Origin: Carcharhinus amblyrhynchos
Lineage: Eukaryota
Length of the DNA: 64,000 bases
Reading direction: 5' to 3'
Assembly (NCBI GenBank): GCA_965287045.1
Contig: OZ336883.1
Location: 31,620,001 to 31,684,000, forward strand
Positions within the stretch are counted from its first letter, which is position 1; each line of letters opens with the position of its first letter. Below, one piece after another: positions 50,669 to 64,000 of the stretch. Made by a program: the position numbers and the translations under genes. Under the pieces are notes generated by a model that ran no database searches, was not told the DNA's origin, and was given only the letters and a program-made list of their open reading frames with translations.

Positions 50669-50863
50669 CCTGACAGAAATGTCTGCTTGTGCAACTAGTT
50701 CTGCGTCTGCATATGCATCTCCTCCTGCATCTACATCCGCTTCTACTACATCTTCCACTTCTGCCCGATTGCGACATCAGAAGTCAGTGTCCATGTCAGG
50801 CTCAGGGTATGCTACCAAGATGATGCCTGCAATAGACAATGAAGCAGATAACTTCCGGCCTAA
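50669..50863 (+). CDS. MARK3: Candidate symmetric cassette exon: (S)LTEMSACATSS...ARLRHQKSVSMSGSGYATKMMPAIDNEADNFRP
   Basis: Acceptor cttcatcacag|C, donor CCTAA|gtaagc; 195 nt, phase 2-2, open in frame; resembles MARK1 SLTEMS...ARPRHQKSMS and MARK2 RQHQKSMS. Confidence 0.85.
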
Positions 50864-51813: not shown

Positions 51814-52074
51814 CACTGCACCAGGTCAGAGGACACCTGTGACCTCCACCCACAGTATCAGTAGTGCCACCACTCCTGACCGCATGCGTTTCCCCAGAGG
51901 AACTGCCAGTCGTAGCACTTTCCATGGTGGCCAGCTCAGAGAACGACGAAATGCTACATACAATGGACCACCTGCATCTCCAACACTGTCTCACGATGCT
52001 ACTCCTCTATCACAAACACGGAGTAGAGGTTCCACAAATCTCTTTAGTAAATTAACCTCAAAGCTCACAAGAAG
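51814..52074 (+). CDS. MARK3: MARK3 exon (~15): [39 protein letters not shown]...[18 protein letters not shown](R)
   Basis: Acceptor tttttgtag|, donor AAG|gtaagt; 261 nt; contains the aPKC/14-3-3 site RSTFH and the basic [11 protein letters not shown] motif. Confidence 0.96.
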
Positions 52075-54490: not shown

Positions 54491-54517
54491 AAACATGTCT
54501 TTCAGATTTCCCAAAAG
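54491..54517 (+). CDS. MARK3: MARK3 27-nt microexon: (R)NMSFRFPK(R)
   Basis: Acceptor tttttttttaaatttag|, donor AAAAG|gtagga; phase 2-2; matches human MARK3 RNMSFRFIKR as recalled. Confidence 0.92.
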
Positions 54518-61490: not shown

Positions 61491-62171
61491 TTCTGGATTG
61501 ATCAAACGCAAAGGAACACAAGGAGAAAGAATTAACTTGTATTAAATAACACTTTTCATGTCCTCAAAATGGTCCAAAGTGTTTCATGGCCTATTATCAT
61601 CATAAATGTAGTAATTATTATGTAGGCACATTCAGGAGCCATATTGCACACAGCAGTGCCCCACAAACAACAGAGGCAATGACCTGTTAATCTGTGTTTT
61701 GGACATAATTGTTGCCTTCCCACCATTTCAAATGAGAGTGAGGCGGAGAGGTGGTAGAAGTTCTGAAATAAGAGTAAAAAAAACAATCATAGAGATGGGT
61801 GGAACTTGCAAAGTTCTGAGGTTTTCTACAAAGTTGAAAATAAAGACTGTATCTTTATTCAGCAGTTGACAGACATTGCATACATGTGTAATGTATTTCA
61901 GCTACCATCAGTATTTGTCCTGAGATTCACTGCAAGTCAGTTATATGGTTAATGCGAGTAGTTTGACACTACTGAGGAGGAGTGTAGGTAGTTAAGTAGC
62001 TATGTGCATCTTTGGTCAGTGATGAGGAAGTTCAGTTAATTTAGTTTTGTTCTAATTTTGCTTCAATCATAGGTAACAAAGTGGGACCATTAGCACACAA
62101 CGTGCTATCATATGTCAGACTGATTGATCTATATGTACAGTTTAATTCTCCAACATTTTTCCTCTTCTCAG

Positions 62172-62251
62172 GGTCACTATTGACCCATCAAAACGGCAGA
62201 CTTCGAACAAATCAGTGCCCGCAAATACTCCTCAAGGATCAAAGACTGTTA
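62172..62251 (+). CDS. MARK3: 80-nt frame-shifting alternative exon: (R)VTIDPSKRQTSNKSVPANTPQGSKTV, homologous to the MARK4S exon
   Basis: Strong acceptor tttttcctcttctcag|G and donor A|gtaagt; open in the phase-2 frame left by upstream exons; resembles human MARK4S VTLDPSKRQNSNRCVSGASLPQGSKI as recalled. Confidence 0.85.
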
Positions 62252-63550
62252 GTAAGTCTTCAGCCTCTAAATCTTTCCTCCTCTTGACATTTATTTCTGA
62301 AATTCTTCCACATTTACAAAACCCTGTTATATGTTTAGAATTCCTATTCTCTTCCAGATCTCAGATCCAAAGGGCTATTCCACTGTCTATACAGATAAAT
62401 GTAATTGTAAGTTACAGTTTTTCAGACACTGTGATTCATACAAAATTATTTTGGAAAGTACTAAGAAATGTTTTAGGTTATGATAACAGTTAGATTTAAA
62501 CATAATCAAGAAATTCCTATCTGAAAACCTCTGCTTTTTTAAAGAACTGGCATTCTTTAGTCACACTTTAGGATGTGTTGAATGTTTCTCTGTTGAGAAA
62601 CCATAGTTAGTTTTAACATGTTGCGTCTTTGCATATTTTAAAGATTATTTGGTTAGTCCTGAATGCAGACTGAAGGGATAAGTATGTGTTAGGCTCTAAT
62701 TGTAATAAATTCAATGCAGTTGAGTAATAAAATATTTATTACATGGTTATTAAGGAAATGTTTCTGGATGCGTTGAACCTTAAATGTTAATTTGACTCTA
62801 CTTTTGGCCTATATGCACTCTAATGTGCACACAGTAGGAGTTAAGTGTGGCTTTTGTTTAATAGTTTGCAGTGGAATCAAAAAATATAAGCTTTTCATTA
62901 TACTGTAATACGTCAATTGACTTGTAGATTGTCAGTAAAGGATTAAGCAGCAATATTGTGCATGTGTGAATCTAGGTACAGGGACTTCAGTCTGCTATAT
63001 CAGACTTTCTATTGTGATTCAGATTACCTAACTTCCCTGTGTTGTATTAATGGCTATGTCATTGTGTTTATCAGTGAACTTGTCAATGATTATGAAGTGC
63101 TCAAAAATATTGTCATCGAAAGGATTGTTACAGATATTACACTGAATATGTAGGATGCCAAAAATTGATTGTAGTAACAATGTTTTCTTTGTCTCTTACT
63201 TTGTTTATGGAGCCAAATCTAATGTTAAGCTGCACTGTAGATTTATTGAGCCTGTAGGATTATCAACAGTGAAGGCATTTTTATCTATGAGCCTGTGCAT
63301 TCACTACAATGTGTTCCTTGTTAAAAATGCTAATATGCATATTAAACTACAGAAACTTAAAATTTAGTTCAACTTCCCACTAAACACTAGTGACAAATGG
63401 CATTCACTTAAGATTAATCTTTAGCTTGTTGAAAATGTATTTGAATGCACAATGGAAATGTAGACATCGAAGGATCTGATCTGAAAGTCAAATTTCACTT
63501 CAGAAAATTGACACTAGTTTTAATCCATATTCCTTTAAAACCAAATTATA

Positions 63551-64000
63551 CATAAGACATAGGAGCAGAATTAGGCCACTCGGCCCATTGAGTCTGCTCT
63601 GCCATTCAATCATGGCTGATATTTTTCTCATCCCCATTCTCCTGCCTTTTTCCCATCCCCGTTCTCCTGCCTTTTTCCCATAACCTCCTGACCCCCTTAT
63701 TAATCAAGAACCTATCTCCCTTTGTCTTAAAGACACTCAAGAGGGCTTCCAAGACCTCTGCGGCAAAGAGATCCACAGATTCACCACACTCTCGCTGAAG
63801 ACATTCCTCTTCGTCTGTGTTTTAAAGGATTGTCCCTTTAGCCTGAAGTTGTGCCCTCTGGTTCCAATTTTTCCTACTAGTGGAAACACCCTCTCCACAT
63901 CCACTTTATCCAGGCCTCACAGTATCCTGTAAGTTTCAATAAGATCCCTCCTCATCTTTCTAAACTCCAACAATTTCAAGCCCAGCCATTCCTTATACGA
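63551..64000 (-). mobile_element. Relatively young CR1 LINE 3' end with a ~27-bp tandem duplication
   Basis: cataagacataggagcagaattaggccactcggccc; catccccattctcctgccttttttcc is repeated. Confidence 0.85.

What the first reader, a model, noticed from the sequence alone, without database searches (positions are those of the whole stretch)
62172..62251. MARK4S-type 80-nt frame-switch exon inside MARK3: a candidate KA1-less 'MARK3S' isoform
Seen: an 80-nt segment with a strong acceptor (tttttcctcttctcag) and donor (gtaagt), open in the phase-2 frame left by the KLTRR exon or the microexon. It encodes VTIDPSKRQTSNKSVPANTPQGSKTV and exits in phase 1. Recalled knowledge: human MARK4 exon 16 is 80 nt, encodes VTLDPSKRQNSNRCVSGASLPQGSKI, and its inclusion shifts the frame to give MARK4S, which lacks the KA1 membrane-binding/autoinhibitory domain. 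This switch is usually described as specific to MARK4. Inference: the same length, position and peptide in a shark MARK3 imply that the KA1 on/off switch predates the MARK3/MARK4 duplication. Peptide-level conservation suggests the isoform is translated rather than only a decay trigger.
Basis: partly seen in the sequence, partly recalled or inferred. Interest (0 to 1): 0.85.

Follow-up and report, generated by a model that had tools for sequence, protein, structure and literature searches.

The report
Shark MARK3 exon that drops KA1
This shark kinase gene (MARK3) carries a small optional exon which, when spliced in, is predicted to replace the membrane-binding tail with a short conserved one, as in its sister gene MARK4; the exon is real and ancient, but database gene models already list it and a 2026 preprint already calls this family's double-read region ancient.

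Summary
The exon is confirmed: 62172-62251, 80 nt, AG/GT, peptide as stated. The gene is MARK3 by tree, KA1 signature and neighbours; the genome's MARK4 lies on other contigs. Inclusion shifts the frame through a 45-nt exon and stops 77 nt into the last exon. That predicts a KA1-less protein, not a decay target. The shifted frame looks selected as protein: over the same bases, MARK3 and MARK4 share 21 of 24 residues in the shifted frame but 12 of 23 in the KA1 frame, and 6 of 6 base differences at the start of the last exon are silent only in the shifted frame. The tail occurs in annotated MARK3 of sharks, skate, chimaera, coelacanth, sturgeon, bowfin and teleosts, and its tree follows the host genes, so the switch likely predates the MARK3/MARK4 split. 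Novelty is low: RefSeq models list the isoform (e.g. XP_078090182.1), and a May 2026 preprint names MARK1/3/4 as sharing an ancient dual-coding region. Extras: a +4 donor gives an exon-in, KA1-kept form; no tetrapod MARK3 short form was among the rows listed.

The parts
51814..52074 (+). Spacer exon ending in ...[10 protein letters not shown], phase-2 donor; upstream partner of the switch exon
   Evidence: 100% identical to P0004 residues 530-617
54491..54517 (+). 27-nt in-frame microexon (NMSFRFPK), optional; does not change the outcome of the switch
   Evidence: present or absent in annotated isoforms
62151..62171 (+). Pyrimidine tract and AG acceptor of the switch exon
62172..62251 (+). 80-nt frame-switch cassette exon, VTIDPSKRQTSNKSVPANTPQGSKTV; homologue of the MARK4 short-isoform exon
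62252..62257 (+). Donor GTAAGT; its second GT (62256-62257) is a +4 tandem donor giving an 84-nt, in-frame, KA1-keeping form
   Evidence: reproduces ...KTVSKVPTE...; the same junction is in annotated isoforms of 6 shark species
62252..64000 (+). Start of the downstream intron. It runs past the window end to two further parts that lie outside the window: a 45-nt exon read in two frames (G000:C14:31687418-31687462; 67418-67462 in continued window numbering) and the last exon (from C14:31690089; 70089), where the shifted frame stops at 70163-70165 and the KA1 frame at 70432
   Evidence: (GT..AG joint of the 45-nt exon to the last exon in run X1)

Best explanation
This is an 80-nt exon of shark MARK3, homologous to the MARK4 short-isoform exon, whose inclusion shifts the reading frame to a stop inside the last exon and so is predicted to give a stable kinase (MARK3S) that ends in a conserved 66-residue basic tail instead of KA1. 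Shown: the splice signals, frame arithmetic, stop position, gene identity, and the conservation pattern of the shifted frame. Inferred: that the exon is included in a regulated share of transcripts, likely neural as for MARK4S; that the protein accumulates; that losing KA1 frees the kinase from KA1-mediated phospholipid targeting, CLASP binding and autoinhibition; and that the near-invariant core DLRxQVAxYLGI is a binding motif. The switch likely arose once, in the ancestor of MARK3 and MARK4.
For: All four exon combinations that include the 80-nt exon stop 77 nt past the last junction. Over the same bases, shark MARK3 versus ray MARK4 share 21 of 24 residues in the shifted frame and 12 of 23 in the KA1 frame. 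Within this genome, 6 of 6 differences in the first 26 nt of the MARK3 and MARK4 last exons are silent in the shifted frame and replacements in the KA1 frame; simulated P about 7e-5 (the stretch was chosen after seeing the pattern). 212 retrieved proteins (79 distinct tails: 56 MARK3-type, 23 MARK4-type) carry the short tail; 19 of its 66 columns are 97-100% invariant. The tail tree splits MARK3 from MARK4 (98/93) as the host tree does; MARK3+MARK4 are sisters (SH-aLRT 99, quick tree). RefSeq models with the short tail exist in 7 cartilaginous fishes, coelacanth, sturgeon, bowfin and many teleosts. KA1 roles and MARK4S neuronal expression come from passages of PMC6890249, PMC10390814 and bioRxiv 10.64898/2026.02.24.707805.
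Against: The database support is predicted (XP_) models, whose read support I could not see. The one contig spliced into this exon's first 28 nt comes from another upstream exon and is likely MARK4, so it says nothing about MARK3 inclusion. Part of the shifted-frame sequence is forced by the main frame: the stop follows from the M-K codons, and the MARK2 45-nt exon also reads LRAQ in the shifted frame. No function of the tail was tested.
Confidence: 0.85

Rival explanations
1. Poison exon: inclusion mainly triggers decay and tunes the MARK3 level, and the peptide is incidental.
For: The exon is frame-shifting and has conserved flanks. The new stop lengthens the 3' UTR by 269 nt.
Against: The stop lies in the last exon. 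Silent-site pattern and residue conservation favour the shifted frame. Exon length varies by whole codons.
Confidence: 0.05
2. The exon's main role in MARK3 is an in-frame 28-residue insert made with the +4 donor (KA1 kept); the KA1-less form is minor or a remnant.
For: Exon-in, KA1-kept models exist in 6 shark species plus a chimaera variant; ray and shark MARK4 models reach the same state by another route (P0394, P0397).
Against: The +4 donor (GTCTTC) is far from consensus. The downstream shifted frame is conserved from sharks to teleosts, which an in-frame role cannot explain.
Confidence: 0.06
3. The gene is the shark's MARK4, misnamed, so the exon is simply the known MARK4S exon.
For: The short tails of the two genes are 72-78% identical in elasmobranchs, and some shark MARK4-like records are labelled 'kinase 3-like'.
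Against: The window gene groups with MARK3, including tamarin MARK3. Its KA1 is near-identical to PDB 1UL7 MARK3. MARK4 lies on C683, C1447 and C924, next to an M-type creatine kinase.
Confidence: 0.02
4. The exon moved between paralogues later, by gene conversion, rather than being inherited from before the duplication.
For: 28 nt are identical between this exon and the likely MARK4 transcript, while 9 of 10 codons just upstream differ silently.
Against: Tails sort by host gene across jawed vertebrates, with gene-specific marks (LRAQ versus LRSQ, a 4-residue gap in MARK4). A short local conversion of the exon's 5' end in elasmobranchs is not excluded.
Confidence: 0.02

Closest known systems
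MARK4S/MARK4L switch (exon 16 of human MARK4; PMC9355243, passage seen)
   Same: Cassette exon after the KLTRR exon; inclusion shifts the frame and removes KA1. The tail is homologous: 66-68% identical to squamate and salamander MARK4 short forms, 72-78% to shark, ray and lungfish ones.
   Different: Here the host is MARK3. The tail has four extra residues and LRAQ instead of LRSQ. A 27-nt microexon may precede the exon. A +4 donor offers an exon-in, KA1-kept form.
RefSeq-predicted mark3a short isoforms (XP_078090182.1 Mustelus, XP_042193834.1 Callorhinchus, XP_014348402.1 Latimeria, XP_066550974.1 Amia)
   Same: Same exon, same junctions, same C-terminus; the Mustelus tail is identical to the window's.
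   Different: Nothing in sequence. These are unnamed predictions; I found no paper on their function in the searches.
Ancient dual-coding regions (Tress et al., bioRxiv 10.64898/2026.05.28.727796; abstract, passages and sections 21, 23, 27 read)
   Same: Names MARK1, MARK3 and MARK4 as a family with a dual-coding region preserved across chordates, and reports dN/dS below 1 in both frames for MARK4.
   Different: In this shark I found no counterpart exon in MARK1 or MARK2.

Membership tests
MARK3 orthologue | Groups with MARK3, not MARK1/2/4, on sequence upstream of the exon | tested here: met
   (quick ML tree: MARK3 clade SH-aLRT 86, MARK4 clade 100; the careful search did not finish); the clade includes tamarin MARK3
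MARK3 orthologue | MARK3-type KA1 domain | tested here: met
   HGDGHAENLVQ as in PDB 1UL7 (MARK3). MARK1 3OSE scores higher only through a longer match and carries the other signature, which the C12 gene resembles
MARK3 orthologue | Neighbours EIF5 - MARK3 - CKB (order recalled) | tested here: inconclusive
   eIF5 family upstream and a tail-to-tail creatine kinase downstream are present; B versus M type was not resolved on one exon (102.1 versus 101.6 bits)
MARK4S-type frame-switch exon | Length 3n+2 with canonical splice sites, after the KLTRR exon | tested here: met
MARK4S-type frame-switch exon | Peptide and downstream shifted frame homologous to MARK4S | tested here: met
MARK4S-type frame-switch exon | Stop before KA1, inside the last exon | tested here: met
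MARK4S-type frame-switch exon | Included in mRNA of this gene | tested here: inconclusive
   Only contigs were available; indirect support from predicted models in many species
MARK4S-type frame-switch exon | Protein detected; neural enrichment | not testable with these tools
   No proteomics; run tissues are coded
Poison (NMD) exon | Stop more than 50-55 nt upstream of the last junction (rule recalled) | tested here: not met
   the stop is 77 nt downstream of the last junction in all combinations

The most novel reading that the evidence does not exclude
MARK3 and MARK4 inherited a three-way C-terminal switch (exon skipped with KA1; exon in without KA1; exon in with KA1 restored). Its short tail is a real binding module, a DLRxQVAxYLGI helix plus a basic patch, selected harder than the KA1-frame linker it overlaps. 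Fishes keep it in both genes while tetrapods keep it mainly in MARK4, so 'MARK4-specific' would be a tetrapod loss.
Probability: 0.35. Interest if true: 0.6.

Novelty: already known. Interest (0 to 1): 0.35.

Why it matters
The MARK4 short tail is often described only as loss of KA1. Its retention in two paralogues across jawed vertebrates, with the shifted frame the better conserved one, argues that the tail has its own partner or function. It also points to the residues to mutate. In teleost models, mark3a would supply a second KA1-less kinase that could mask MARK4S phenotypes. The basic fact is already in predicted annotations and, in outline, in a preprint, so the gain is detail and testable focus rather than discovery.

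Tried and rejected
RNA: no RNA holder listed (16 of the 22 rows only guessed to be RNA). Seven runs were laid as contigs. No contig joining this gene's own upstream exon to the 80-nt exon, or the exon to a downstream exon, appeared in the listed rows. In one search, 260 joints were not shown and repeats swamped the tables. Contigs show presence, not absence, so this counts neither way. The X1 contig first looked like proof of inclusion; rejected, because its upstream exon differs silently at 9 of 10 codons (likely MARK4). Structure prediction of the short isoform failed (mean pLDDT 35.6, pTM 0.19, kinase domain not folded) and is not used beyond noting a weak helix at 664-671. A hydrophobic-moment scan did not flag the conserved core. 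MARK1 and MARK2 introns of this genome: no homologous exon by HMM. The best hit (MARK2, VTLDP-like, E=0.58) has no pyrimidine tract and lies on the wrong side of the microexon. Tetrapod MARK3 short forms: 0 among the 120 of 188 rows listed, 0 of 93, 0 of 11; weak, because of word seeding and 90% clustering. The 150 best 50%-cluster representatives held one further short tail, a teleost MARK4-type; the hagfish entry gave nothing informative. Lamprey and lancelet were not tested. No RBFOX motif near the three cassette exons. Two KA1 papers were not held. Earlier scan findings: none.

Full report
Observation. The segment 62172-62251 is 80 nt between a pyrimidine-rich AG acceptor and a GTAAGT donor, and encodes VTIDPSKRQTSNKSVPANTPQGSKTV. 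It follows the KLTRR exon (ends 52074) and a 27-nt microexon (54491-54517). It is single-copy in the assembly. In contigs of three other organisms it is unchanged (X3) or differs by one silent base and one in-frame codon insertion (X9, X12), while the matches break off 27-56 nt into the downstream intron.

Which gene. The window is G000:C14:31620001-31684000. The genome holds four MARK paralogues. C12 is MARK1-like, C278 plus C973 MARK2-like, and C683, C1447 and C924 are fragments of MARK4. On sequence upstream of the exon only, the window gene falls among MARK3 with tamarin MARK3, C1447 falls among MARK4, and the two clades are sisters (quick ML tree; SH-aLRT 86, 100 and 99; the careful search did not finish; 10 MARK3 and 10 MARK4 rows chosen by me for taxon spread). 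The KA1 domain is near-identical to the solved MARK3 KA1. An eIF5-family match lies upstream and a creatine kinase tail-to-tail downstream; the order EIF5-MARK3-CKB is recalled, and the B/M type was not resolved. The kinase next to MARK4 is M-type.

What inclusion does. Beyond the window lie a 45-nt exon (67418-67462 in continued numbering; joined to the last exon by a GT..AG joint in run X1) and the last exon from 70089. All four combinations without the 80-nt exon read through KA1. All four with it stop 77 nt into the last exon, at 70163. The stop is downstream of the last junction, so junction-dependent decay is not expected (rule recalled). The product ends in a 66-residue tail of net charge +8. 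A second GT four bases into the donor gives an 84-nt form that restores the KA1 frame. That junction is in predicted isoforms of six shark species. Shark and ray MARK4 models reach the same exon-in, KA1-kept state by a different junction.

Is the shifted frame protein? Over the 45-nt exon and the start of the last exon, shark MARK3 and ray MARK4 share 21 of 24 residues in the shifted frame and 12 of 23 in the KA1 frame. Within this genome all 6 differences in the first 26 nt of the two last exons are silent in the shifted frame and replacements in the KA1 frame (simulated P about 7e-5; region picked after inspection). Among the 377 proteins then held, 212 carry the short tail, as 79 distinct sequences (56 MARK3-type, 23 MARK4-type), with a near-invariant DLRxQVAxYLGI core. 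The exon peptide is 26 or 27 residues in 71 of 79; 8 were not parsed. Caveats: the stop is forced by main-frame codons, and LRAQ also appears in the shifted frame of MARK2, where the rest is not conserved.

Age. MARK3 short forms are annotated in sharks, skate, chimaera, coelacanth, sturgeon, bowfin and teleosts; MARK4 short forms in sharks, rays, lungfish, salamanders, squamates and ray-finned fishes. The tail tree separates the two genes (98/93), so both likely inherited the switch from before their duplication. MARK1 and MARK2 of this shark show no counterpart between the equivalent exons. No tetrapod MARK3 short form was among the rows listed (0 of the 120 shown of 188; 0 of 93; 0 of 11), which hints at loss but is weak and sits uneasily with the preprint below.

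RNA. Direct inclusion in this gene is not shown here; details are under Tried and rejected. One X1 contig (798 nt, depth 20.9) is spliced into 28 nt identical to the exon's start, but from an upstream exon that differs silently at 9 of 10 codons (compared by eye). Identity ends after KRQ, where elasmobranch MARK4 proteins begin to vary. It is likely the MARK4 short transcript, whose exon was not found in the assembly.

Mechanism. KA1 of MARK1-3 mediates membrane localisation, CLASP binding and autoinhibition (passages of PMC6890249). MARK4L arises by skipping exon 16, and MARK4S has 688 residues (passage of PMC9355243). MARK4S is expressed in brain and neurons (passage of PMC10390814; brain-specific frame use in a passage of bioRxiv 10.64898/2026.02.24.707805). 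By inference MARK3S is a kinase freed from KA1 control and carrying a conserved motif of its own, likely made in neurons. None of this was tested for MARK3.

Novelty. The isoform is in RefSeq predictions (XP_078090182.1, XP_042193834.1, XP_014348402.1, XP_066550974.1). Tress et al. (bioRxiv 10.64898/2026.05.28.727796; abstract, passages and sections 21, 23, 27 read; supplements closed) state that MARK1, MARK3 and MARK4 have dual-coding regions preserved across chordates, with both MARK4 frames under selection. They give no exon-level account for MARK3 in the text I read; the supplements may. Searches for a named or characterised MARK3 short isoform (listings only, apart from the papers named above) found none. 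Verdict: real, ancient, probably functional, largely already on record. Interest 0.35.

Noticed in passing
window 62170-62199 versus run X1 record 3: 28 exon bases are identical between MARK3 and a likely MARK4 transcript although the adjoining exon is saturated with silent changes: either a nucleotide-level splicing element or a short gene conversion in elasmobranchs.
   Followed up: partly
window 52074/62172 junction: Inclusion creates R-R-V-T/S-I, a PKA-like site (consensus recalled). The residue is S or T in all 56 distinct MARK3-type tails, and T in 11, N in 12 of the MARK4-type tails.
   Followed up: partly
window about 50669-50863: A further probable in-frame optional exon (LRHQKSVSMSGS), absent from P0004 but similar to a stretch of tamarin MARK3 P0228; boundaries not confirmed.
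   Followed up: no
window 62252-62493 and 62358-62406: The exon's frame stays open for 80 more codons into the intron, and a 49-nt AG/GT candidate lies inside. Hemiscyllium model P0381 ends in a tail that resembles that candidate's translation.
   Followed up: no
L014 (G000:C924, MARK4 last exon): Two apparent single-base indels break the frames, probably assembly errors; MARK4 and MARK2 are scattered over small repeat-rich contigs.
   Followed up: partly
G000:C12:56072671-56074008: A creatine-kinase-family gene also lies tail-to-tail with MARK1, so three MARK paralogues keep a creatine kinase neighbour.
   Followed up: no
window about 63550-64000: High-copy repeat; contigs pile up to thousands-fold depth.
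   Followed up: no
L009:5900-5917, and the C12 and C973 45-nt exons: The 45-nt exon has the unusual acceptor GAG in MARK1, MARK2 and MARK3 alike.
   Followed up: no
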